Source of the DNA: a virus
DNA: 23,107 bases
UHGV virus genome: UHGV-1970859
Strand: one strand, 5' to 3'
Part shown: piece by piece, positions 4,034 through 23,107 of the stretch
Position numbering within the stretch: the first letter of the stretch is position 1
How the letters are laid out: each line of letters opens with the position of its first letter
Translations under genes and position numbers: made by a program
Notes under the pieces: generated by a model
Told to the model about the DNA's origin: nothing
What the model saw: the letters and a program-made list of their open reading frames with translations, nothing else
The model's database searches: none

Positions 4034-4484
4034 CCCACGTCACATCCTGGAATACATGCGACCAGTCGCCTTCGGAAGATGGCAGGCGTGGTTTTGGCTC
4101 CGGCAGGTGTTCTGCCTGCGGTGTGCCCTGACTGCTGCGCGTGATGCGAACGCGTTCCCGCAGGGGGAGCGTAAACAGGAGATCGGCGCTGTCATCGTCA
4201 TTGATAACGGCGGAGAATTTGATGTCCTGATTACGCTCAGGGTTGAGCAACAACTGTGGCTGATTTTCGGATAACCACGCCAGCAGCGGCAGCGTGAGGT
4301 CGTCCAGCTCCCCGGCGTAATCCATGACAAACATCACCATCTGATAGCGGTAAACAAACGATGGGGTTTCTCCTGTCGTTTCAATGTTGCCGCTCTCCAC
4401 GAAAATGGTGAATTTTTCCGGGTTGGCCTGACACCATCGGCATGAACGGGTCATGGCTTCACGCAGGGAATCAGTTTTCAGCAT
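4017..4484 (-). CDS. R: Tail completion protein gpR
   Basis: 155 aa. MLKTDSLREAM...LPLLAWLSENQP resembles P2 gpR (MLKPDSLRRAL...VLAWLRENQP), same length. Confidence 0.85.
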   Translation of the reverse strand: MLKTDSLREAMTRSCRWCQANPEKFTIFVESGNIETTGETPSFVYRYQMVMFVMDYAGELDDLTLPLLAWLSENQPQLLLNPERNQDIKFSAVINDDDSADLLFTLPLRERVRITRSSQGTPQAEHLPEPKPRLPSSEGDWSHVFQDVTWGESDG

Positions 4485-4791
4485 GGTTGTTGTCCTCGTT
4501 GTTCAGTCGTTGCAGCCTGCGCTGTTCCAGTAATTCAATGGCCCGTTTATCCGCGTTACAGGTTTCCAGTGCATCCAGAAGGCGGTCGCCCCATATACCG
4601 AGATTTCCCCATGTGGGAGTATCAGGGAAGGGGGGAGGCGTTACCGGTATGGTCAGCGTCTGCGGTATAAGCCGGACTGACGGCGCTGGCAGTGGCGCGT
4701 TCTGCGTGCCTGCGCAGCCTGTCAGTAAAACGAGCGTCAGGCAAAGCGTGGGCGCATTCATCTTTTGCAATATCGTTGCGTAGCTGTTCAC
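4471..4791 (-). CDS. Outer-membrane spanin lipoprotein (LysC/Rz1-like)
   Basis: Lipoprotein signal with lipobox LLTGC (MNAPTLCLTLVLLTGCAG), proline-rich mature part. Overlaps the 3' end of the i-spanin gene in another frame, as P2 lysB/lysC do. Start could be at 4791 or 4761. Confidence 0.6.
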   Translation of the reverse strand: MNSYATILQKMNAPTLCLTLVLLTGCAGTQNAPLPAPSVRLIPQTLTIPVTPPPFPDTPTWGNLGIWGDRLLDALETCNADKRAIELLEQRRLQRLNNEDNNHAEN

Positions 4792-5029
4792 GTCTTACCT
4801 CTCCGTCCTGATTGCGTTGCTGATTTTCCACGCGGAGTTGCGCCAGCACCTGCTGCATATCCTGTACCCCGGCGCTGATGATATTCAGGGTGTCGGCGGT
4901 ACTTTTCAGGGTGCTGGCCTGCGCTTCGTTTCTGGCGTTCTCCCGGCCAAGCGACCACGACAGACGCATGGATGTTCCCCATGCGGCAATCAGAAGGAAA
5001 GCGATGCCCAGCGTGGGCCAGAGTTTCAT
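4622..5029 (-). CDS. Inner-membrane spanin (LysB/Rz-like)
   Basis: Internal start MKLWPTLGIAFLLIAAWG gives an N-terminal TM helix followed by a charged coiled-coil-like segment. ATG is coupled (ATGA) to the endolysin stop. The track ORF extends upstream to 5173, which is likely a spurious extension. Confidence 0.6.
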   Translation of the reverse strand: MKLWPTLGIAFLLIAAWGTSMRLSWSLGRENARNEAQASTLKSTADTLNIISAGVQDMQQVLAQLRVENQQRNQDGEVRREQLRNDIAKDECAHALPDARFTDRLRRHAERATASAVSPAYTADADHTGNASPLP

Positions 5030-5418
5030 GCCGGATAGGCTCCGTGTGGTAACTGAAAATGCGGTCCGTCTTTCAGGGTCTTCCAGTCGCCGCCCCATTC
5101 CACCGGAATATTCAGTTCCCGGCTGGCCTGTCTGAATGCTGCTGCGATTTTTTCGTACAGCGGCCATTCCCATGACACCTGGCTGCCGATATAAGCCACA
5201 ACATCCACGGCATGTCCCGTAAGGTGGCGGCTGTTCATGGTCTGGCTCTTACCCGTGGCCACAAGTTGCTTCTGGCGGTAACGACTGCGCAACCCTTCGG
5301 TGATACCAAAATCCACTTCCGAAATTTCCAGTGCCCGTCGGGTCACTTTCACCAGATCAGGATTTACGCCCTGCAAATTCTTTTCGCTCCGGCTGCTGAA
5401 TTTAAATGTGTTGCTCAT
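5026..5418 (-). CDS. Endolysin, peptidase M15 family (zinc D-Ala-D-Ala / L-Ala-D-Glu peptidase-like)
   Basis: 130 aa with SRHLTGHAVDV and DGPHFQLPH motifs (the H/D/H zinc ligand pattern of the VanY/M15 fold). Sits between holin and spanins, with an ATGA overlap with the holin stop. Confidence 0.75.
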   Translation of the reverse strand: MSNTFKFSSRSEKNLQGVNPDLVKVTRRALEISEVDFGITEGLRSRYRQKQLVATGKSQTMNSRHLTGHAVDVVAYIGSQVSWEWPLYEKIAAAFRQASRELNIPVEWGGDWKTLKDGPHFQLPHGAYPA

Positions 5419-5738
5419 TCGTCCTTCTCCTTCACCCTGCGATTAAAGGCTGCAATAACCTTGTCGCGTGCTTTCTCTGCGCCCATAAAACCGATTGATG
5501 CGCCGATAAACGTCACGGCATCTTCAGGAAAACCGAAGAAGCGCAACGACCCGGCCACGGCCATGGCAAGAACGCCGCACGCCAGCGATCCCGTTACGGT
5601 CTGAACCAGTGTTCGTCCGTCATAAAGACTCATCAGCGCGGAAATGCTGACCGCCGCGCCTACTGCATACACCGTTGGCAGGTGGTCAAAGAGCCACGCA
5701 ATAACCTGCTCTGTGATCCCTGTTTGAATGGTGCTCAC
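5415..5738 (-). CDS. Holin (class I-like, three predicted TM segments)
   Basis: In-frame GTG at 5738 is preceded by GGGGGAG. The 107-aa product has three hydrophobic stretches and a charged C-terminal tail (NRRVKEKDE). Position between X and endolysin. The track ORF 5415..5957 upstream part overlaps X and is probably not translated. Confidence 0.6.
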   Translation of the reverse strand: MSTIQTGITEQVIAWLFDHLPTVYAVGAAVSISALMSLYDGRTLVQTVTGSLACGVLAMAVAGSLRFFGFPEDAVTFIGASIGFMGAEKARDKVIAAFNRRVKEKDE

Positions 5739-12297: not shown

Positions 12298-12723
12298 GAC
12301 TCTCCAGCTCTTGTATCAATCAGATAATTTCACGACGCTTTCCTGCTTATTGCCATCATCGACAGTCAGACTCTTACGCAATCCCACCGCGTTGACTGCA
12401 TGTTCTCGCCGTCTCAGTGCGATTTTGACGGCCTTACCTTTCACCCCATCAAATCAAAAGCCCTCACGTCTTTTTCACGCTCAGCGTGAGAAAGACAGCC
12501 ATTCTGTTCTATCTCTGCGACATCGTTCAGGGAATGCTATTTACCCCCTGAAACGCGGGCTGTTCCCCCGTCACCTGCGCGCAGAAAAAACGCGTTTTTT
12601 TGTGCACGCACGGATCCTTGGCGGATCCAGCCACCACGCGGGCCGGAAGGGCAAAAAGTCGTTCAAAAAAATTGTGCAAATTTGTGCACAATCTTGCATT
12701 AAAATCAACGTTCAGTGGATGTA

Positions 12724-12752
12724 TTTAAGCGAAAAAAAGATCTTTGTATAAT
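12724..12752 (+). promoter_or_regulatory. Candidate sigma70 promoter for the toxin-antitoxin operon
   Basis: TATAAT at about 12747-12752 with TG immediately upstream and a weak -35 (TTTAAG) 17 bp away, about 30 bp upstream of the toxin start. Three TTGTGCA repeats lie upstream at about 12598, 12672 and 12682. Confidence 0.3.
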
Positions 12753-12783
12753 TTCGTTCGGTTACGTTGGTGAGAGGTTCTGA

Positions 12784-13185
12784 GTGAAAGACATCACATA
12801 TTGGAATGATAAAATTCAGAAACAAATTGATAGTTATCCTGAAGCCGTTCGAGAAAGGATAAATTTTGAGCTTGTTGCACTGCAGAGCGATTGTCCTCAT
12901 TCTTTCGACAGTTTCGATTTTCCAGTGGATGGTGATGATGCCTTGGGGGTTCCACCGGCTCAAAAAAAATCAATGCGGGAAACGATTGGTCGCTACGCAA
13001 TGCAATTAACCATCAAGAGTAGTGATTCTTATCGTATGATTTACGTTGCGAAATTTGCGGAGTCTGTTTACATACTTCATACATTTAAGAAAAAGACAAA
13101 TGGTGTGTCAAAAAAAGAATATGAGACAGCTGCCGCAAGATACAAACAATTAGTGGAGTATCGTCGTAAAAATGGCTTAAGATAG
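12784..13185 (+). CDS. Type II toxin, RelE/HigB superfamily (Gp49-like, DUF891-type)
   Basis: 133 aa, GTG start with GAGAGG upstream. C-terminal YRMIYVAKFAESVYILHTFKKKTNGVSKKEYETAAARYKQL is characteristic of Gp49-like toxins. Followed by an XRE-HTH gene (toxin-first order as in HigBA). AT-rich relative to flanking phage genes. Confidence 0.6.
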   Translation: MKDITYWNDKIQKQIDSYPEAVRERINFELVALQSDCPHSFDSFDFPVDGDDALGVPPAQKKSMRETIGRYAMQLTIKSSDSYRMIYVAKFAESVYILHTFKKKTNGVSKKEYETAAARYKQLVEYRRKNGLR

Positions 13186-13255
13186 CTTGCAGGTATCTCA
13201 AATCTGATATAACATAATCAATGTCAGCAACATCGCTGATTAAGGCTGGAGAGTT

Positions 13256-13573
13256 ATGGAATTCGTCGTAGTTAAAAACCCTTATGCGTCATCAAGTAGC
13301 TCTGTAAATGAAGCTAGTGATAAACACATCCGGGCCCAATTAATGGTTATTATCCGAAAAATGATTCAGGAGCGCGGTCTTACCCAGCGAGAAGCTGCTG
13401 AATTGCTGGAAACAACCCAACCAAGAGTAAGCGAAATCATTAATGGTAAGTTAGATAATCATACCATTGATCGACTGTTTATCATGCTAAACATCCTGGG
13501 GTGGGATTTTAAGTTTGGGTATTCCGGTGGGGTTGTTACTGCGACGGCAGAACATTCCTGTCAGGTTGCATAA
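13256..13573 (+). CDS. Antitoxin, HTH XRE family (HigA-like)
   Basis: 105 aa. LTQREAAELLETTQPRVSEIINGKLDNHTIDRLFIMLNILG is an HTH pattern typical of antitoxins paired with Gp49-like toxins. GGAG Shine-Dalgarno. Confidence 0.6.
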   Translation: MEFVVVKNPYASSSSSVNEASDKHIRAQLMVIIRKMIQERGLTQREAAELLETTQPRVSEIINGKLDNHTIDRLFIMLNILGWDFKFGYSGGVVTATAEHSCQVA

Positions 13574-13580
13574 ATATTAA

Positions 13581-13613
13581 GCCCCTGACGGGGCCAACCG
13601 TCAGGGGCTTTTC
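13581..13613 (+). terminator. Rho-independent terminator after the antitoxin gene
   Basis: GCCCCTGACGG-GGCCAA-CCGTCAGGGGC, an 11-bp perfect GC-rich stem followed by TTTTC, 8 bp after the stop codon. Confidence 0.7.
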
Positions 13614-13738
13614 AACACAAAGAAATGATAGTCTGAGAAATATCATCACCTTGATGTTTTGCATGTACAACTGTGATTCTAGTCAATCCAGGCAGATAAT
13701 CAAGGTAAAAATCATTCTCAGTAAGGAGGTGATTATGG

Positions 13739-13888
13739 ATGGCTTTGAAATCAATTGTAAAAAAACCGGCTCCGAAAGGATTTCGTTGGCAGTTTTGCCG
13801 ATACCGTAAGGTTCGTGGTGATTCTGGTCGAAAGCTGGATGCTCATGAGTATGGCTGGAAAGCTTGGGCGTTTCTAGTGCGAAGCTGA
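13739..13888 (+). CDS. Small basic hypothetical protein (49 aa)
   Basis: Below the ORF-track size cutoff. Strong AGGAGG Shine-Dalgarno at 13724-13729. Own translation: MALKSIVKKPAPKGFRWQFCRYRKVRGDSGRKLDAHEYGWKAWAFLVRS. Has its own terminator hairpin 13 nt downstream. An alternative 24-aa frame starts at 13735. Confidence 0.35.
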   Translation: MALKSIVKKPAPKGFRWQFCRYRKVRGDSGRKLDAHEYGWKAWAFLVRS

Positions 13889-13901
13889 TATTTGATATTT
13901 A

Positions 13902-13925
13902 AAAGCATGGCGAAAGCCATGCTTT
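13902..13925. terminator. Bidirectional intrinsic terminator between the small ORF (plus) and parR (minus)
   Basis: AGCATGGC-GAAA-GCCATGCT, an 8-bp stem with a GNRA-type loop, T-rich on both sides. A second hairpin ATTCAGG-N8-CCTGAAT at about 13934-13955 is followed by TTCTTTTTTA. Confidence 0.55.
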
Positions 13926-13931
13926 TTGTGA

Positions 13932-14246
13932 TCATTCAGGAAAAAATTCCTGAATATTCTTTTTTATTTGACTTATATTCTGATTTTTGCAACCAACAGG
14001 CTCGCTGTTATGCCAGCCCCATATGTGATTGTTGGCAGGCATATTTTCCCCCTCTGACCATTCAGCCAGCCAGTAAGCAAAGGCAGGATCGTTTTTAATG
14101 AGTGCCAGTCCAGCCAGAAATGCCGCGCGTTGCGCGCGGCTGCGTTCGGAGGCTGGCAGGCTGTCGAGATAATTACACGCTTCCCGTTCACTCTTGACTG
14201 CAGCTGGCTTCAGATAGAAACTTATCCGTCTGGTTGGTGTCGTCAT
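13932..14246 (-). CDS. parR: ParR-like RHH centromere-binding adaptor
   Basis: Track ORF 13932..14381. Likely start is MTTPTRRISFYLKPAAV at 14246, with an AAGGAG Shine-Dalgarno inside the parM 3' end. N-terminal RRISFYLKP...YLDSLPASERSRAQRAAFLAGLALIKNDP resembles R1 ParR (RRTIAFKLNP...TLDSIPQGERSRLNRAALTAGLALYRQDP) as recalled from memory. Confidence 0.6.
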   Translation of the reverse strand: MTTPTRRISFYLKPAAVKSEREACNYLDSLPASERSRAQRAAFLAGLALIKNDPAFAYWLAEWSEGENMPANNHIWGWHNSEPVGCKNQNISQIKKNIQEFFPE

Positions 14247-14250
14247 TGGT

Positions 14251-15210
14251 TTACTCCTTGTCCATTGCGTACAGCCCATTAACCAGAGCAAACTGTGGCA
14301 CCCCGTCCGCGATGAAAGTCGCATTAACTCCGCAGGCTTCGCGGATAGCGGGGGCCACAATCTCCGCCCCGCCACCGACAACCATCACCCGCCCGTAACC
14401 CGAAAAACCCGCCAGCGCGCGGATCACGCGTTGTTTCAGTGTTTCTTCCTTTTCACGAATAACCGCCATCAGGCTGGCGTAATGCGCGTCATTGTGGATG
14501 TGCTGGCGCAGCCAGGCTTCATCATGGCGATGTTCGATAATGGTATTGGCGATGTGGTGACTGGTACGCATACCGTTAGTGGCCATCACCGACAGTACGG
14601 CATCGGCCATCAGGGAAACGCCTACGTGTGGATCGCAAAACACCTGGCTGATACCTACCAGTTGTCCCTGAACCTTTGCCACATCCAGCGTGGTTCCGCC
14701 TAAATCCACAATCAGCAGGGATTCAAACGGACTCATGTCAGCCAGTGCTTTAAAACCAGCCGGAATGGATTCAGGCATAACCCGTACGTTACGGATAGTG
14801 AATGCTTTTCCGTTCTGGTACGCCACCGGGCGCATGACGTTTGCTTTTTTGCGGTTGATGTTGGCCATGTCCGGCTGTGCGTTTGTGTCGAAATATTCGC
14901 TCAGTGGCAGGGTGACAACCACATCCACTTCCTGTGGTGTGATGCCTGATTTGACCAGCGCGTGATGAATGGCAATGACATTCACATCGCTGTACTGGTA
15001 TTGCGTGTCGGTCGTCTGGACAAAGCGATCGCTGACCGGATCAAAACCATAGCGCACGCCATCAAGCATGTAGTTTGCGGGCTGCGTGCCACCGAACGGC
15101 GCAGACCATTCCGACTTGAAGCTGTTCGGGCTGATGGCGTTGCGGCGTTCGCCGTTCTCAGTCCATGCCAGCTTGATGTTGGTGGAGCCGTCATCGATAC
15201 AAATTTTCAT
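14251..15210 (-). CDS. parM: ParM/StbA-family actin-like segregation ATPase
   Basis: 319 aa. MKICIDDGSTNIKLAW, ISPNSFKSEW, YSDVNVIAIHHAL, VMPESIPAG, LLIVDLGGTTLD, FSGYGRVMVVGGGAE and LVNGLYAM match the R1 ParM motifs (phosphate 1, adenosine and phosphate 2 elements of the actin fold), as recalled from memory. Confidence 0.85.
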   Translation of the reverse strand: MKICIDDGSTNIKLAWTENGERRNAISPNSFKSEWSAPFGGTQPANYMLDGVRYGFDPVSDRFVQTTDTQYQYSDVNVIAIHHALVKSGITPQEVDVVVTLPLSEYFDTNAQPDMANINRKKANVMRPVAYQNGKAFTIRNVRVMPESIPAGFKALADMSPFESLLIVDLGGTTLDVAKVQGQLVGISQVFCDPHVGVSLMADAVLSVMATNGMRTSHHIANTIIEHRHDEAWLRQHIHNDAHYASLMAVIREKEETLKQRVIRALAGFSGYGRVMVVGGGAEIVAPAIREACGVNATFIADGVPQFALVNGLYAMDKE

Positions 15211-20150: not shown

Positions 20151-20354
20151 TTAGCTGTTAGCCAAAGCGTCTTTTAACATCGCCACAAGGTTTACTTCAG
20201 GCTTTTCCATTTTGGCGCGTTTGGGGCGGATAATAATTCGACCGTCAGCCAACATCTTTTTGCATGTATTAAGAGGGATACCTGTTATCTCTGCATATTT
20301 CTGCAGGGATACATAGGGGGCATTCACATGGATATTGATGGTTATACCTGACAT
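20151..20354 (-). CDS. cox: Cox-like HTH DNA-binding protein (putative excisionase / switch regulator)
   Basis: 67 aa. APYVSLQKYAEITGIPLNTCKKMLADGRI resembles the P2 Cox HTH (IPYQEFAKLIGKSTGAVRRMIDKGKLPVI). GAGG Shine-Dalgarno. Located at the head of the early operon. Confidence 0.55.
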   Translation of the reverse strand: MSGITINIHVNAPYVSLQKYAEITGIPLNTCKKMLADGRIIIRPKRAKMEKPEVNLVAMLKDALANS

Positions 20355-20370
20355 CCCACTAGCCTCGTGA

Positions 20371-20577
20371 TCAGGAAGATTTGTTTTGTTCTTTCTGGGT
20401 TAGCTCTAGGCCGCGAAGGAAGATCATGCGCGCCATGTTAGAGGATGAGCGTTGTTCTTTAGCTGCCATTTCATCAATGACGGCTCGCTCCTCGAGTGAC
20501 AGCCGAAGTGCCAGTCTTGGACCTGTGGCGGTGTTACGCGGAATGCGTGATCTGGTATCGTGAAGAACTTGTTTCAT
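20371..20577 (-). CDS. Ribbon-helix-helix (Arc/CopG-like) DNA-binding protein, first gene of the early operon
   Basis: 68 aa. PRLALRLSLEERAVIDEMAAKEQRSSSNMARMIFLRGLE fits the RHH beta-strand/helix-A pattern. No obvious Shine-Dalgarno, so possibly leaderless or weakly translated. Confidence 0.45.
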   Translation of the reverse strand: MKQVLHDTRSRIPRNTATGPRLALRLSLEERAVIDEMAAKEQRSSSNMARMIFLRGLELTQKEQNKSS

Positions 20578-20652
20578 AGTGGTATATTGTGATCATCTAA
20601 TAGCTCGTGAAATCATTTTGGTATCAAAAAAGATACCTGTCAAGGTTTTTGT
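20578..20652. promoter_or_regulatory. Lysis-lysogeny switch region (divergent genes, expected face-to-face promoters and operators)
   Basis: 75-bp gap between the early operon and the repressor gene. TGGTAT(C) repeats at about 20553, 20580 and 20619, and an inverted pair GGTATC-AAAAAA-GATACC at about 20620-20637. TATATT -10-like hexamer. Confidence 0.4.
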
Positions 20653-21057
20653 ATGAAAAATGATATTGGTCAGCGGTTGCGTGAGGAAAGGGAAAGATTG
20701 GGACTTAGTCAAGTTGCTATGAGCGACATTGGTGGAGTCAAAAAGCTAACTCAGCTTAGATATGAGAAAGGAGATAGCTTTCCTGATGCTGCGTATTTGG
20801 CAGCGCTGTCTCGTTTTGGCCTTGATGTTCAGTATGTTGTGTTGGGAATTCACTCACCTGAAACTTATAACGATGATGAGCAGGAGCTGATTACTCGCTT
20901 TCGAGCAGCTTCGTTAGATGTGAAAAACGCCGTGATCGGGGCTTTAAAAGGTGCGATCAGTGAAAAGGAAACTCAGCCATCAGGACGTGAGTTAAATATT
21001 TCTGGTGGTAATAACCGTATCGCTGGTCGTGACTATAACGAAACTAAGGGTAGGTGA
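20653..21057 (+). CDS. Immunity repressor (C-like), XRE-family HTH
   Basis: 134 aa. N-terminal GQRLREERERLGLSQVAMSDIGGVKKLTQLRYEKGDSFPDAAYLAALSRFGLDV is a classic XRE HTH. Divergent from the early operon and on the same strand as int, as for P2 C / 186 cI. Confidence 0.7.
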   Translation: MKNDIGQRLREERERLGLSQVAMSDIGGVKKLTQLRYEKGDSFPDAAYLAALSRFGLDVQYVVLGIHSPETYNDDEQELITRFRAASLDVKNAVIGALKGAISEKETQPSGRELNISGGNNRIAGRDYNETKGR

Positions 21058-21072
21058 TAGTAGGGAGGTGAC

Positions 21073-21723
21073 ATGGCCGTCAACTCAAACGGTTCAAACA
21101 ATCGCGTTGCTGGACGTGATTTTCACGAAAAGAATATTCAGATAGCGCGATATGATGGTTCTCATACCGTCAATATCGCAATCCCTTCGAATAATGATGA
21201 TGACGATCGCCCTTTGCTTAAGGCTCAGCGTAAGGAGCTAAATAGCTTGGTTGCTGCTATTGCAGAAGCTAGCAATACTGAAGCGTTTATTATTTGGCAA
21301 AAAGTACATGCGGAGATTGGTGTAGCTGGTATTGATGATATGACAGTAAATCAATATAAAACAGCGGAGAGTTTTCTGCATGCAATGCTTGAGCGATGTA
21401 AAGATCATGATGCCTGTAAGACTCTTGTAAGTTTATTACTACGTAACAGTGAAGACTGTGGACTTCGACAAAAACTTCTGCGGTATTGCCATATCAATTT
21501 CGGTACAGGACGTTTAAACGATCTTACTCGTTCTCAGTTACAGTCTGCATTGTCGTGGTTAGAGCAACAATCGGTATCAAGCCATACAGAGAATTCGACC
21601 TTACCAGAAGTCCGACTTCGTGCTTCAGAATTAATCCGACTTTATCCAAAAGAAATAATATTCTTTATCTGCGTAGGGGTTTTGGTAGGCGGTGCCATTT
21701 CTAGGGTGTTTTTTAATTTGTAA
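21073..21723 (+). CDS. Hypothetical tail-anchored membrane protein (216 aa) in the lysogenic operon
   Basis: GGGAGGTG Shine-Dalgarno. Low-complexity N-terminus (NNDDDD), helical central region, C-terminal TM segment IIFFICVGVLVGGAISRVFF. Its N-terminus repeats a motif from the repressor C-terminus. Confidence 0.5.
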   Translation: MAVNSNGSNNRVAGRDFHEKNIQIARYDGSHTVNIAIPSNNDDDDRPLLKAQRKELNSLVAAIAEASNTEAFIIWQKVHAEIGVAGIDDMTVNQYKTAESFLHAMLERCKDHDACKTLVSLLLRNSEDCGLRQKLLRYCHINFGTGRLNDLTRSQLQSALSWLEQQSVSSHTENSTLPEVRLRASELIRLYPKEIIFFICVGVLVGGAISRVFFNL

Positions 21724-21752
21724 TCTTACTTGAGCTAAATTGAGGTAATGAT

Positions 21753-22100
21753 ATGAAAGTAAAAAAGGTTCAACTATTAGTTACTTTTTTATCTATGTTT
21801 TCTTTTTCCGCCGTCGCAATGCCTTTTAAAAATATTGAACGTGAGAGTTTCAATGGGGTATGGCCATTTAATACTGATGAGGTTCAATTACAGTGTCTTG
21901 ATGGTAATCCTTATGTGATGAATTTTGACGATAATAAGTTATATGCGCTTACAGGTTTGGCTCGAATAAAAGGTAAAACATTTGGTGCGTTACCGTTAGA
22001 TAACAATAATCCATTTTGGCTAGATAATGATGCCGCCCCAGGGTTAAAAAAGAGTCTGGGGGATGTCACTAAGGCTGCATTTGATTTATGTGATAAGTAA
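21753..22100 (+). CDS. Secreted YebY-like (DUF2511) protein
   Basis: 115 aa with signal peptide (MKVKKVQLLVTFLSMFSFSAVA). NGVWPFNTDEVQLQC...PYVMNF and C-terminal AAFDLC resemble E. coli YebY (AWPFTREEVMLTC...LYVINP...LC) as recalled from memory. AT-rich. Confidence 0.55.
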   Translation: MKVKKVQLLVTFLSMFSFSAVAMPFKNIERESFNGVWPFNTDEVQLQCLDGNPYVMNFDDNKLYALTGLARIKGKTFGALPLDNNNPFWLDNDAAPGLKKSLGDVTKAAFDLCDK

Positions 22101-22105
22101 CTAAA

Positions 22106-23107
22106 ATGTCGGTTCGTAAGATTCCATCAGGTAAATGGCTTTGCGAATGTTATCCCTACGGGGCATCGGGAAAACGCATTCGTAAACAGTTTGCGACAAA
22201 AAGTGAGGCGCTCTCTTATGAGCGCCGTTTAATGAATAGTAGAGTTGGAGAGGAGTTTCAAGATGGTTCTGGTCCTCGTCTTTCTGAGTTGATTGCTCGT
22301 TGGTTTGAGATGTACGGTAAAACCTTGTCCTCTGGTGCAGAGCGCAAAGTCAAACTTGAGGCGATTTGTTCCAGGCTGGGAGATCCATTTGCTTCTCAGT
22401 TTGACAAAAATATGTTTGCTACTTATAGGGAAAGAAGGCTATCAGGAGAATGGAATCCCAAGAGGAAGAAAAAACTTAGTGAAGCAACCGTTAATCGCGA
22501 GCAGTCATATCTACATGCTGTTTTTGCCGAACTGAAGCGACTTGGGGAGTGGTCTGGTGAAAACCCCCTGACTGGTATTCGCAAGTTTCGTGAGGAAGAA
22601 AAGGAACTGGCGTTTCTGTATGTAGATGAGATTGAACGCCTTCTGATTGCGTGTGATGAGTCACGGAATAAAGATTTGGGGGTTGTTGTCCGTATTGGGC
22701 TTGCGACTGGTGCTCGGTGGAGTGAAGCAGAAGGATTAAAGCAATCTCAAGTACTGCCCGGTCGAATCACATTTGTTAAAACTAAAGGAAAGAAGAACCG
22801 CACTGTACCGATTTCACCTCAATTGCAGGCTATGCTTCCTAAAAAACGAGGAGCGCTATTTTCACCATGTTATGAGGCTTTTGACGCTGCAATTAAGAGA
22901 GCGAAGATCGAGCTTCCTGATGGGCAATTAACTCATGTGCTACGTCACACTTTTGCCAGTCATTTTATGATGCGGGGCGGAAATATTCTTGTGTTGCAAA
23001 AAATACTGGGGCATAGCGATATAAAAATGACTATGCGTTATGCGCATTTTGCTCCAGGTCATTTAGAGGCTGCTGTTGAATTGAACCCTTTTGACAATAG
23101 AGGGTAA
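22106..23107 (+). CDS. int: Tyrosine integrase (P2 Int family)
   Basis: 333 aa. C-terminal catalytic signature HVLRHTFASHFMMRGGNILVLQKILGHSDIKMTMRYAHF (R-H-R-Y). Terminal position at the end of the lysogenic operon. Stop codon is the last codon of the window. Confidence 0.95.
   Translation: MSVRKIPSGKWLCECYPYGASGKRIRKQFATKSEALSYERRLMNSRVGEEFQDGSGPRLSELIARWFEMYGKTLSSGAERKVKLEAICSRLGDPFASQFDKNMFATYRERRLSGEWNPKRKKKLSEATVNREQSYLHAVFAELKRLGEWSGENPLTGIRKFREEEKELAFLYVDEIERLLIACDESRNKDLGVVVRIGLATGARWSEAEGLKQSQVLPGRITFVKTKGKKNRTVPISPQLQAMLPKKRGALFSPCYEAFDAAIKRAKIELPDGQLTHVLRHTFASHFMMRGGNILVLQKILGHSDIKMTMRYAHFAPGHLEAAVELNPFDNRG

What the first reader, a model, noticed from the sequence alone, without database searches (positions are those of the whole stretch)
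21073..22100. Two cargo genes inserted between the immunity repressor and integrase: a tail-anchored membrane protein and a secreted YebY/DUF2511-like protein
In P2 the repressor gene is followed directly by int. Here about 1 kb of AT-rich DNA encoding a 216-aa protein with a single C-terminal TM helix and a 115-aa signal-peptide protein is inserted on the same strand, so both would be expressed in the lysogen from the repressor promoter. This is the classic position for lysogenic-conversion, superinfection-exclusion or abortive-infection genes. The pairing of a membrane-anchored and a periplasmic protein suggests an envelope-acting function.
Basis: partly seen in the sequence, partly recalled or inferred. 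Interest (0 to 1): 0.6.

Follow-up and report, generated by a model that had tools for sequence, protein, structure and literature searches.

The report
Phage repressor with matched membrane partner
The two genes are real, but only the second is swappable cargo; the first is a membrane-anchored partner that always accompanies this repressor and starts with a short motif matching the repressor's tail, a pairing I found described nowhere.

Summary
Both ORFs exist exactly as described. They lie in a P88-like (Xuanwuvirus) P2-family prophage next to yecA, present in about 505 of 5426 complete E. coli genomes.

orf115 (21753-22100) is a secreted YebY/DUF2511 protein with both disulfide cysteines. 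It occupies a slot that changes between relatives and holds the PARIS defence system in a Yersinia relative. That makes it true cargo in a hotspot type already reported.

orf216 (21073-21723) is not cargo. In 12 enterobacterial loci it always directly follows the repressor. The same repressor-plus-partner pair also occurs in Mu-like phages (B3, Ps59, BcepMu, phiE255, KS10) and in P2-like KS5.

- The repressor's disordered C-terminal tail (..NISGGNNRIAGRDYNE..) and the partner's disordered N-terminus (..NSNGSNNRVAGRDFHE..) carry the same short motif.
- The motif co-varies locus by locus: none of 200,000 permutations of 13 pairs matched the true pairing.

My best reading is a two-gene immunity cassette in which a membrane-tethered partner binds the repressor tail and modulates the lysogeny switch. 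The binding and the function are inferred, not shown. orf216 shares the Flk_N domain and the tail anchor with Flk but is not an Flk orthologue. The proposed membrane-plus-periplasm functional pair is not supported.

The parts
20653..21057 (+). Immunity repressor, 134 aa: XRE-type HTH (residues 1-64), helical hairpin (74-105) and a disordered C-terminal tail (104-134).
   Evidence: HTH_31/HTH_3 and phrog_8 hits. AF2 model with pLDDT about 90 in the HTH and below 50 from residue 104. Homologues are annotated as the repressor in B3-like, BcepMu-like and KS5 phages.
20992..21042 (+). Repressor tail motif, L114-E130: LNISGGNNRIAGRDYNE.
   Evidence: The motif is conserved in the repressor family even where the HTH (immunity type) differs. 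It co-varies with the partner's N-terminus.
21073..21723 (+). orf216: the tail-anchored, Flk_N-domain partner of the repressor.
   Evidence: phrog_5825 E 1e-101. PF27202 Flk_N is recorded on 98%-identical homologues. It always lies directly downstream of the repressor.
21079..21129 (+). Partner N-terminal motif, V3-E19: VNSNGSNNRVAGRDFHE. A degenerate second pseudo-repeat follows at about residues 25-38 (nt 21145-21186).
   Evidence: Local alignment to the repressor tail scores 62, and each is the other's best match among 13 pairs. The motif is nearly invariant across 22 homologues. Only 4 of 10 identical residues use the same codon, so this is not recent gene conversion. The region is disordered in the AF2 model.
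21208..21579 (+). Flk_N module (residues 46-169): two small helical-bundle units.
21655..21711 (+). C-terminal transmembrane tail anchor (residues 195-213).
   Evidence: Highest hydropathy window, 2.36. AF2 helix 192-214. Most homologues end 0-2 residues after the hydrophobic stretch.
21753..22100 (+). orf115: secreted YebY/DUF2511-family protein. Signal peptide residues 1-23 (nt 21753-21821); mature domain with Cys48 and Cys113.
   Evidence: Pfam PF10709, 28.1 bits against a cutoff of 21. Profile match to 7n0j YebY, E 1.4e-6, with both cysteines aligned. The cysteines are invariant in 14 homologues. Lowest GC in the region, 0.353.
22106..23107 (+). HP1-type tyrosine integrase, the last gene of the operon.
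   Evidence: Int_N and Phage_integrase domains. The nearest DNA relatives are the HP1, HP2 and Yersinia phage integrases. The prophage end lies next to yecA.
20151..20577 (-). Divergent early genes: an Arc-like 68-aa protein and a Cox-like 67-aa protein. They mark the other side of the switch.
   Evidence: The RefSeq annotation of the 98%-identical phage 520873 names them 'Arc-like repressor' and 'Cox-like excisionase and repressor'. A TTGACA-17-CAAAAT promoter-like site points leftward at 20643-20615.

Best explanation
The interval holds two unrelated things.

**(1) orf216 is the second gene of a two-gene immunity cassette.** The repressor and a membrane-anchored partner with a cytoplasmic N-terminus are made from the same transcript. 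Each carries the same 17-25-residue G/N/Q/R-rich motif in a disordered terminus: the repressor at its C-terminal tail, the partner at its N-terminus. I propose that the two motifs pair directly, so that a fraction of the repressor is held at, or handed over at, the inner membrane. The partner would then tune how much active repressor is available and so modulate maintenance or release of lysogeny. The closest comparisons are a membrane-tethered anti-repressor or co-factor, ImmA acting on ImmR, RexA/RexB acting with lambda CI, or an anti-sigma factor acting on its sigma factor. The Flk_N helical bundles would be the protein-binding body of the partner.

**(2) orf115 is independent cargo.** It is a periplasmic, disulfide-bonded YebY-like protein sitting in the hypervariable slot just upstream of int. 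It would be expressed in the lysogen as a conversion or protection gene.

**Shown:** synteny, the modular spread of the pair across phage types, motif co-variation, disorder of both termini, the tail anchor and the family assignments.

**Inferred:** co-transcription, physical contact between the motifs, and any effect on the switch.
For: **The pair is invariant while its neighbour varies.**
- In 12 loci from 10 or more genera the order is repressor, then Flk_N protein, then a variable gene, then int. The variable gene is DUF2511, a 288-aa BRCT-like protein, DUF8087, a 242-aa membrane protein, two small genes, or nothing.

**The pair travels as a unit.**
- It appears in Mu-like transposable phages of Pectobacterium, P. 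aeruginosa and Gilliamella and in metagenomes.
- It is also present in phages B3 (ORF18/ORF20), Ps59, KS10, BcepMu (gp17/gp18), phiE255 and KS5.
- The genes are 4-57 nt apart (from the coordinates) or overlap, as at L025, L028, L030, BcepMu and phiE255.

**The motifs co-vary.**
- For 13 pairs with diverse motifs, the own-partner alignment score sum is 564, against 326 +/- 37 for permuted pairings. None of 200,000 permutations reached it.
- For 8 pairs tested exhaustively, only the true pairing out of 40,320 reached the observed sum.
- Only 4 of 10 identical residues share a codon, so selection acts at the protein level.

**The middle of the partner can change while the motif and membrane anchor stay.**
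- The middle is a zinc ribbon in L029 and L030 and no recognised domain in B3.

**Absence correlates with absence.**
- A homologous repressor lacking the tail (L040) has no such partner.

**Structure predictions fit.**
- Both motifs lie in regions predicted to be disordered.

**orf115 is separable cargo.**
- PARIS occupies the same slot in vB_YenM_31.17. The literature already notes the hotspot and YebY's phage context (PMC9122126, PMC13586616, PMC8689200).
Against: - No experiment or complex prediction shows that the two motifs touch.
- Co-variation could also arise if both motifs bind a common third factor.
- KS10 gp12 lacks a membrane anchor, so membrane tethering is not universal.
- Encoding a repressor antagonist in the repressor's own operon requires post-translational control, for which there is no evidence here.
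- P88, the founding phage of the genus Xuanwuvirus, is mitomycin-C inducible (PMC5285337), which needs no membrane partner. Searches of the phage collection with orf216 found it only in phage 520873 and, distantly, in Ralstonia phages, so whether P88 carries this cassette is unknown.
- For orf115 there is no functional evidence beyond family membership.
Confidence: 0.5

Rival explanations
1. Repressor-guarded membrane effector, similar to Rex or to amyloid signalling. The membrane partner would be a dormant exclusion or abortive-infection effector. Its N-terminal pseudo-repeats would be held or templated by the repressor tail. When the repressor's state changes, for example through superinfection, an antirepressor or induction, the partner would oligomerise and act on the membrane.
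For: - The position directly after the repressor matches lambda cI-rexA-rexB (my own knowledge).
- A motif at the C-terminus of the upstream protein and the N-terminus of the downstream protein is the same genomic signature used to find amyloid signalling pairs (10.1101/2020.01.06.895854).
- The partner has two pseudo-repeats against one in the repressor, as in HET-s/NWD2.
- The partner is a membrane protein.
Against: - There is no PADLOC hit.
- A single tail-anchor helix with almost no periplasmic residues is a weak pore former.
- There is no NLR/STAND protein and no Bell or HeLo domain.
- The motif is rich in charged residues (R, D, E, K).
- Some partners carry periplasmic sensor-like domains, which suits signalling inward better than killing.
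Confidence: 0.22
2. Shared recognition tag. The two motifs never touch each other. Both would be recognised by the same host factor, such as a protease, adaptor or chaperone (FtsH, ClpXP or DnaK). The partner would then compete with the repressor for that factor and set the repressor's half-life.
For: - Both motifs are terminal and disordered, which is typical of degrons.
- Stability of the Mu repressor is governed by its C-terminal tail and ClpXP (my own knowledge).
- Tail-anchored Flk biogenesis uses DnaK (PMC6794478).
Against: A conserved host factor would hold the motif constant. Instead the motif diverges strongly between cassettes in related hosts, while staying matched within each cassette. 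That pattern favours partner-specific pairing.
Confidence: 0.13
3. Both genes are cargo that act together on the envelope, one anchored in the membrane and one in the periplasm, to exclude superinfecting phages.
For: - The two genes are adjacent, on the same strand and AT-rich.
- About 505 complete E. coli genomes carry both together.
- The slot is a known hotspot type (PMC9122126).
Against: - The E. coli co-occurrence reflects one prophage lineage at 95-100% identity.
- Across genera the two genes assort independently.
- Nearly all of orf216 is cytoplasmic, so it has essentially nothing in the periplasm to meet orf115.
Confidence: 0.07
4. Flk mimic. orf216 would act like host Flk on the flagellar type III export switch and change motility in lysogens.
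For: It shares the Flk_N domain and the C-terminal tail anchor with Flk.
Against: - It scores only 59 bits against an equivalog cutoff of 353, and has one module instead of two.
- The family is abundant in Klebsiella, which is generally non-flagellate (my own knowledge).
- This model does not explain the motif shared with the repressor.
Confidence: 0.05

Closest known systems
Flk (flagella biosynthesis regulator; NCBIfam NF007987; E. coli and Salmonella)
   Same: Both have the Flk_N helical module and a C-terminal tail anchor with the bulk of the protein in the cytoplasm. Flk is an experimentally verified tail-anchored protein (PMC6794478).
   Different: Flk has two Flk_N modules, is about 330-416 aa long, has no AGRD-type N-terminal motif and is chromosomal. 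orf216 has one module, carries the motif, always follows a phage repressor, and scores far below the family cutoff (59 vs 353 bits).
Repressor plus co-transcribed partner modules: ICEBs1 ImmR/ImmA and lambda cI-rexA-rexB
   Same: In each, a gene directly downstream of the repressor sits in the lysogenic operon and its product acts on or with the repressor. RexB is an inner-membrane protein. These comparisons rest on my own knowledge.
   Different: There is no sequence or domain relationship: no metalloprotease motif, and no Pfam or PADLOC hits. The matched terminal motifs have no counterpart in those systems.
Amyloid signalling motif pairs (fungal HET-s/NWD2; bacterial BASS motifs with Bell/NLR proteins)
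   Same: A short homologous motif lies at the C-terminus of one protein and the N-terminus of the protein encoded by the adjacent gene. One side has pseudo-repeats and the other a single copy. One partner is membrane-directed (10.1101/2020.01.06.895854).
   Different: There is no NLR/STAND protein and no Bell or HeLo effector. The hosts are unicellular Proteobacteria and their phages, whereas BASS pairs were reported essentially in multicellular Actinobacteria and Cyanobacteria. Amyloid formation is untested here.
YebY (E. coli AZY operon; PDB 7n0j) and MlbQ (DUF2511 family)
   Same: orf115 has the same family signature, a signal peptide and the Cys48-Cys113 disulfide pair (PMC8689200).
   Different: There is no copC/copD (yobA/yebZ) neighbour and identity to YebY is low. 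The gene is phage-borne in the repressor-int slot, a context the YebY authors noted but did not study (PMC8689200). PSP3 gp28 and SEN1 carry a 28%-identical version in the same slot.
cI-int accessory and defence hotspot of P2-related phages (K139-like Vibrio phages; minor P2 hotspot 'between integrase and primase')
   Same: Gene content varies between conserved repressor-side and integrase flanks, and known defence systems can occupy the slot (PMC9122126, PMC13586616; PARIS in vB_YenM_31.17).
   Different: Here the variable slot begins only after the conserved partner gene. The occupant is a small periplasmic protein, not a recognised defence system.

Membership tests
Flk (NCBIfam NF007987 equivalog) | Full-length match above the curated cutoff of 353 bits | tested here: not met
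   orf216 scores 59.1 bits and covers Flk residues 20-152 only. Authentic Flk proteins score 428-476 bits.
Flk (NCBIfam NF007987 equivalog) | Two tandem Flk_N modules followed by a tail anchor | tested here: not met
   orf216 has one module, which aligns to either Flk module. The tail anchor is present.
Flk (NCBIfam NF007987 equivalog) | Controls the flagellar type III substrate switch and FlgM secretion | not testable with these tools
   This needs genetics. The abundance of the family in Klebsiella, which is generally non-flagellate (my own knowledge), argues against it.
Pfam Flk_N domain (PF27202) | Significant match to the domain model | tested here: met
   The precomputed PF27202 assignment is recorded on 98%-identical P0001 and on nearly all homologues. 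The model is absent from the local Pfam copy.
Tail-anchored membrane protein | A single transmembrane segment within about the last 30 residues, no signal peptide, and the N-terminal bulk in the cytoplasm | tested here: met
   The only hydrophobic segment is residues 195-213 of 216. AF2 predicts a helix at 192-214. Homologues end right after the transmembrane segment. Actual membrane insertion was not tested.
DUF2511 / YebY family (PF10709) | Pfam match above the gathering score | tested here: met
   28.1 bits against a cutoff of 21, covering profile positions 3-87 of 87.
DUF2511 / YebY family (PF10709) | Extracytoplasmic location (signal peptide) and two conserved disulfide cysteines | tested here: met
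   The signal peptide has an AVA|M cleavage motif. C48 and C113 are invariant in 14 homologues and align to the YebY cysteines (PMC8689200).
AZY copper-uptake operon member (YebY proper) | Adjacent copD (yebZ) and copC (yobA) genes | tested here: not met
   The neighbours are orf216 and int.
Amyloid signalling motif pair (HRAM/BASS type) | A homologous short motif at the C-terminus of one protein and the N-terminus of the adjacent gene's product | tested here: met
Amyloid signalling motif pair (HRAM/BASS type) | An NLR/STAND receptor on one side and a cell-death effector (Bell, HeLo or similar) on the other | tested here: not met
   The two sides are an XRE-type HTH repressor and a Flk_N tail-anchored protein. 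No NACHT, NB-ARC or Bell hits were found.
Amyloid signalling motif pair (HRAM/BASS type) | The motif forms cross-beta fibrils and cross-seeds its partner | not testable with these tools
   The only relevant data are that both motifs are predicted to be disordered as monomers.
Repressor-int accessory/defence hotspot of P2-related phages | Gene content varies between conserved flanks, and known defence systems occur in the slot | tested here: met
   This holds for the orf115 slot only. There are six different contents in 12 loci, PARIS in a related phage, and literature precedent (PMC9122126).
Known anti-phage defence systems (PADLOC) | Match to any PADLOC model | tested here: not met
   Neither orf216 nor orf115 has a hit at E <= 0.1.
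ImmA-type anti-repressor protease | COG2856 metalloprotease domain | tested here: not met
   No peptidase family was hit in Pfam or NCBIfam.

The most novel reading that the evidence does not exclude
The matched terminal motifs would form a homotypic, possibly prion-like (cross-beta or beta-solenoid) signalling interface. A membrane-embedded sensor would use it to switch a phage repressor on or off, or the repressor would use it to trigger a membrane effector. That would be a new, SOS-independent route for controlling lysogeny, shared by P2-like and Mu-like phages of Gamma- and Betaproteobacteria. It would also be the first amyloid-type signalling pair found in phages of unicellular Proteobacteria. 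Host Flk might then be a domesticated relative of this partner.
Probability: 0.15. Interest if true: 0.9.

Novelty: new variant of a known kind. Interest (0 to 1): 0.62.

Why it matters
Only a few routes are known by which temperate phages set and release repression: RecA-mediated cleavage, LexA-controlled antirepressors, protease partners and quorum signals. A conserved membrane-anchored partner that shares a co-evolving peptide with the repressor would suggest a further input, from the membrane or envelope. Such a partner is present in textbook phages (B3, BcepMu) and in a prophage carried by about 9% of complete E. coli genomes, including O157, O26 and O103 strains.

The idea is directly testable with motif swaps and deletions. 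It gives a first functional context for the Flk_N domain. It also refines how cargo is called in P2-family prophages, because the variable slot starts after the partner gene and not after the repressor. The YebY-like cargo gene is a recurrent moron (accessory gene) expressed in lysogens. Its function is unknown, but it may affect copper handling or resistance to peptide antibiotics in pathogenic E. coli.

Tried and rejected
**Read-through or frameshift fusion of the repressor and orf216.**
- In the window the two ORFs are in the same frame, but they are separated by TGA TAG TAG.
- Other loci use different frames, for example L012 and L013.
- No fused HTH-Flk_N protein appeared among 232 repressor homologues or 90 Flk_N cluster representatives.
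- Rejected.

**Recent gene conversion as the source of motif similarity.**
- Rejected on codon usage: 4 of 10 identical residues share a codon, and nucleotide identity is 59%.

**Folding the two proteins as one chain.**

**Sequence search of orf216 against solved structures.**
- Nothing significant was found.

**Defence-system models.**
- PADLOC gave no hit for either gene.

**Other copies of the motif in the 23-kb window.**
- None were found.

**tRNA at the attachment site near yecA.**
- None was found in L001.

**Searching phage records with the P. aeruginosa partner protein.**
- No match.

**Literature searches.**
- Searches for Flk_N or PF27202, for amyloid signalling together with prophage repressors, and for BcepMu gp17/gp18 found no description of the pair.
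- I read the genome papers for KS10 and KS5 only. They list these genes simply as hypothetical or membrane proteins. The B3 and BcepMu genome papers were not consulted.

**Context look-up for a second tail-less repressor (P0347).**
- It is not on record in the collection.
Full report
**Observation**

The window is part of a P2-family prophage. Region 20600-22150 is 98% identical to Escherichia phage 520873 (genus Xuanwuvirus, P88-like). It is 95-100% identical to a prophage next to yecA in 521 of 5426 complete E. coli genomes, among them O157:H7, O26:H11 and O103 strains.

The ORFs are exactly as reported:
- repressor, 20653-21057
- orf216, 21073-21723
- orf115, 21753-22100
- int, 22106-23107

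All are on the + strand. They are separated by 15, 29 and 5 nt, have good ribosome-binding sites, and have no terminator-like site between them. GC falls from 0.44 (repressor, int) to 0.41 (orf216) and 0.35 (orf115), against 0.52 for the whole window. In P2 itself, C is followed directly by int.

**orf115**

orf115 matches Pfam DUF2511 above threshold. As a 14-sequence profile it matches the YebY crystal-structure sequence 7n0j (E 1.4e-6). Its two invariant cysteines align to the YebY disulfide pair (PMC8689200). It has a typical Sec signal peptide ending AVA|MP.

Only 18 close homologues were found, far fewer than for orf216.

A 28%-identical DUF2511 gene occupies the same position, between an unrelated 286-aa cI and int, in Salmonella phages PSP3 (gp28) and SEN1. 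The YebY authors had already noted yebY genes lying between a XerD-like recombinase and a phage CI repressor (PMC8689200).

YebY is periplasmic and dampens YebZ-mediated copper import (PMC11923076). Its relative MlbQ is a lantibiotic self-resistance protein (PMC8689200). orf115 lacks the copC and copD neighbours, so it belongs to the family but not to the AZY system.

**The slot upstream of int is variable**

I examined 12 loci from Escherichia, Klebsiella, Enterobacter, Rosenbergiella, Mixta, Izhakiella, Hafnia, Serratia, Erwinia and Symbiopectobacterium. The gene between the orf216 homologue and int is one of the following:
- DUF2511
- a 288-292-aa BRCT-containing protein
- DUF8087
- a 242-244-aa membrane protein
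- two small genes
- nothing

In Yersinia phage vB_YenM_31.17, which has a related integrase, the repressor-int interval carries AriA/AriB, the PARIS defence system.

A cI-int defence hotspot has been described for K139-like P2-related phages (PMC9122126). [quoted passage not shown] It matches no PADLOC defence model.

**orf216 is not cargo**

It belongs to phrog_5825 (E 1e-101). It carries the Flk_N domain (PF27202 on its homologues; NCBIfam Flk E 4e-16 over Flk residues 20-152) and a C-terminal tail anchor.

It is not an Flk orthologue. It scores 59 bits against a cutoff of 353 and has one Flk_N module where authentic Flk has two.

The family is small: 90 clusters at 50% identity among 1.84 billion representative proteins.

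The AF2 model (mean pLDDT 71) has four parts:
- residues 1-45 are disordered
- residues 50-172 form two helical units (pLDDT about 80)
- a linker follows
- a transmembrane helix spans residues 192-214

In every one of the 12 enterobacterial loci, orf216 directly follows the repressor, whatever fills the next slot.

**The repressor and orf216 share a motif**

- Repressor C-terminus: ...LNISGGNNRIAGRDYNETKGR*
- orf216 N-terminus: MAVNSNGSNNRVAGRDFHEKNIQI...

Repressors with different HTH sequences, and so different immunity types, keep the same C-terminal half and tail. AF2 predicts the repressor as an HTH (1-64), a helical hairpin (74-105) and a disordered tail (104-134).

Tracing more distant repressor homologues showed that the pair is modular. 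The same repressor-then-partner arrangement occurs in:
- Mu-like transposable prophages of Pectobacterium, P. aeruginosa and Gilliamella, and in metagenomes
- phages B3 (ORF18/ORF20), Ps59, KS10 (gp13/gp12), BcepMu (gp17/gp18) and phiE255 (gp46/gp47)
- the P2-like Burkholderia phage KS5 (gp11/gp12)
- Ralstonia phage RS-AB1

In several of these the two genes overlap by 4 nt or more.

The motif differs between cassettes but stays matched within each one:

| Cassette | Repressor tail | Partner N-terminus |
|---|---|---|
| Pectobacterium prophage (L021) | QIFNGDISGQFAGNQIIN | QEFNGTAQGQFSSRDIIN |
| Metagenomic prophage (L027) | TFHGSVGQSVAGNVTN | DFHGGVGQAAAGDINN |
| Gilliamella prophage (L025) | GQIAGGNIY | EQIAGRDIY |
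| Metagenomic prophage (L030) | VSGSGNRASGRDYNEYH | ISGHGNRVAQRDYYELH |

I tested this with 13 pairs chosen for motif diversity. The summed local-alignment score of true partners is 564, against 326 +/- 37 for permuted partners (z = 6.4). None of 200,000 permutations reached the true value. With 8 pairs tested exhaustively, only the true pairing out of all 40,320 reached the observed sum.

In the window, only 4 of the 10 identical motif residues use the same codon. The similarity is therefore maintained at the protein level and does not come from recent gene conversion.

The rest of the partner protein varies while the N-terminal motif stays:
- one Flk_N module in most cassettes
- a zinc ribbon plus transmembrane segments in L029 and L030
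- no recognised domain in B3 and Ps59
- a small periplasmic Cys..Cys domain after the transmembrane segment in the Burkholderia and Ralstonia versions
- no transmembrane segment in KS10 gp12

A related E. coli prophage whose repressor lacks the tail has no such partner.

**Interpretation**

These points are shown:
- The repressor and a membrane protein with a cytoplasmic N-terminus form a conserved two-gene unit.
- The unit moves between phage types.
- The facing termini of the two proteins carry a co-evolving short motif in disordered regions.

These points are inferred:
- The two motifs contact each other.
- That contact modulates repressor availability or activity. The periplasmic domains of some partners suggest the response may be to membrane or envelope cues.

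The rival readings are:
- a repressor-guarded membrane effector, similar to Rex or to amyloid signalling
- a shared recognition tag for a host protease or chaperone
- an Flk-like action on flagellar export

The 'motif at the C-terminus of one protein, N-terminus of the next' signature, with two pseudo-repeats on one side, parallels amyloid signalling pairs (10.1101/2020.01.06.895854). However, the receptor and effector domains that define those systems are absent, and fibril formation is untested. I therefore keep that as the novel case and do not make it the main claim.

**Novelty**

Searches of the held literature found no description of the pair. The two phage genome papers I read, for KS10 and KS5, list the partner only as a hypothetical or membrane protein.

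The cargo slot and the phage context of DUF2511 are already known. The repressor-partner cassette with matched motifs appears to be new. I rate it a new variant of known repressor-plus-partner modules.

**Verdict**

The finding as written is ordinary and only half right. What lies under it is a testable and apparently undescribed feature of the immunity regions of P2-like and Mu-like phages.

Noticed in passing
window 12311-15210: The gpA-gpQ (cos-proximal) hotspot of this prophage carries a ParM actin-like segregation ATPase (14251-15210, -), a Plasmid_stab_B protein (13932-14381, -) and a Gp49/HigB-like protein (12784-13185, +). These are plasmid partition and toxin-like genes inside an integrated P2-like prophage.
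   Followed up: partly
L002 (NC_049344, Escherichia phage 520873), locus 4457-5499: The RefSeq record of the closest sequenced phage leaves both genes unannotated and splits the integrase in two. tblastn needs three pieces for each gene, which suggests frameshift sequencing errors in that record.
   Followed up: partly
L033 (Yersinia phage vB_YenM_31.17), locus 833-2982: The repressor-int interval of this Peduoviridae phage holds a PARIS system (AriA E 6e-26, AriB E 1e-23). The record annotates the two genes only as 'ATPase' and 'hypothetical protein'.
   Followed up: yes
P0214, P0179, P0185 (authentic Flk proteins): Chromosomal Flk consists of two tandem copies of the module found once in the phage partner, plus the same kind of tail anchor, and it lacks the N-terminal motif. 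Flk could be a domesticated, duplicated relative of the phage protein, or the reverse.
   Followed up: partly
L034 2163-2945 (BcepMu gp18), L036 2262-3008 (KS5 gp12), L037 2333-2701 (RS-AB1); also P0223, P0228: The Burkholderia and Ralstonia partner proteins end in a conserved periplasmic mini-domain of about 45 residues with two cysteines (C.Y.G..Y..G..I.....EC...G..W). This looks like an extracytoplasmic sensing module.
   Followed up: no
L040 3357-4132; L020 4609-5257: A related E. coli prophage has a repressor without the tail motif. Instead of the Flk_N partner it carries a 117-aa zinc-ribbon protein and a 140-aa coiled-coil tail-anchored protein. A similar two-gene set fills the cargo slot of L020.
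   Followed up: partly
L003 5647-6513 (Klebsiella pneumoniae prophage; also L015): The most common Klebsiella occupant of the cargo slot is a 288-aa protein with an N-terminal BRCT domain (E 5e-5) and weak WYL-like similarity. It is a candidate defence or regulatory gene.
   Followed up: no
window 21055-21075: The repressor and orf216 are in the same reading frame, separated by three consecutive stop codons (TGA TAG TAG). The same frame is also used in L003 and L007 but not in L012 or L013.
   Followed up: yes
L032 3026-3559 (KS10 gp12): This partner has the matched N-terminal motif and an Flk_N-like region but no transmembrane segment. It is a soluble exception to the membrane-anchor rule.
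   Followed up: no
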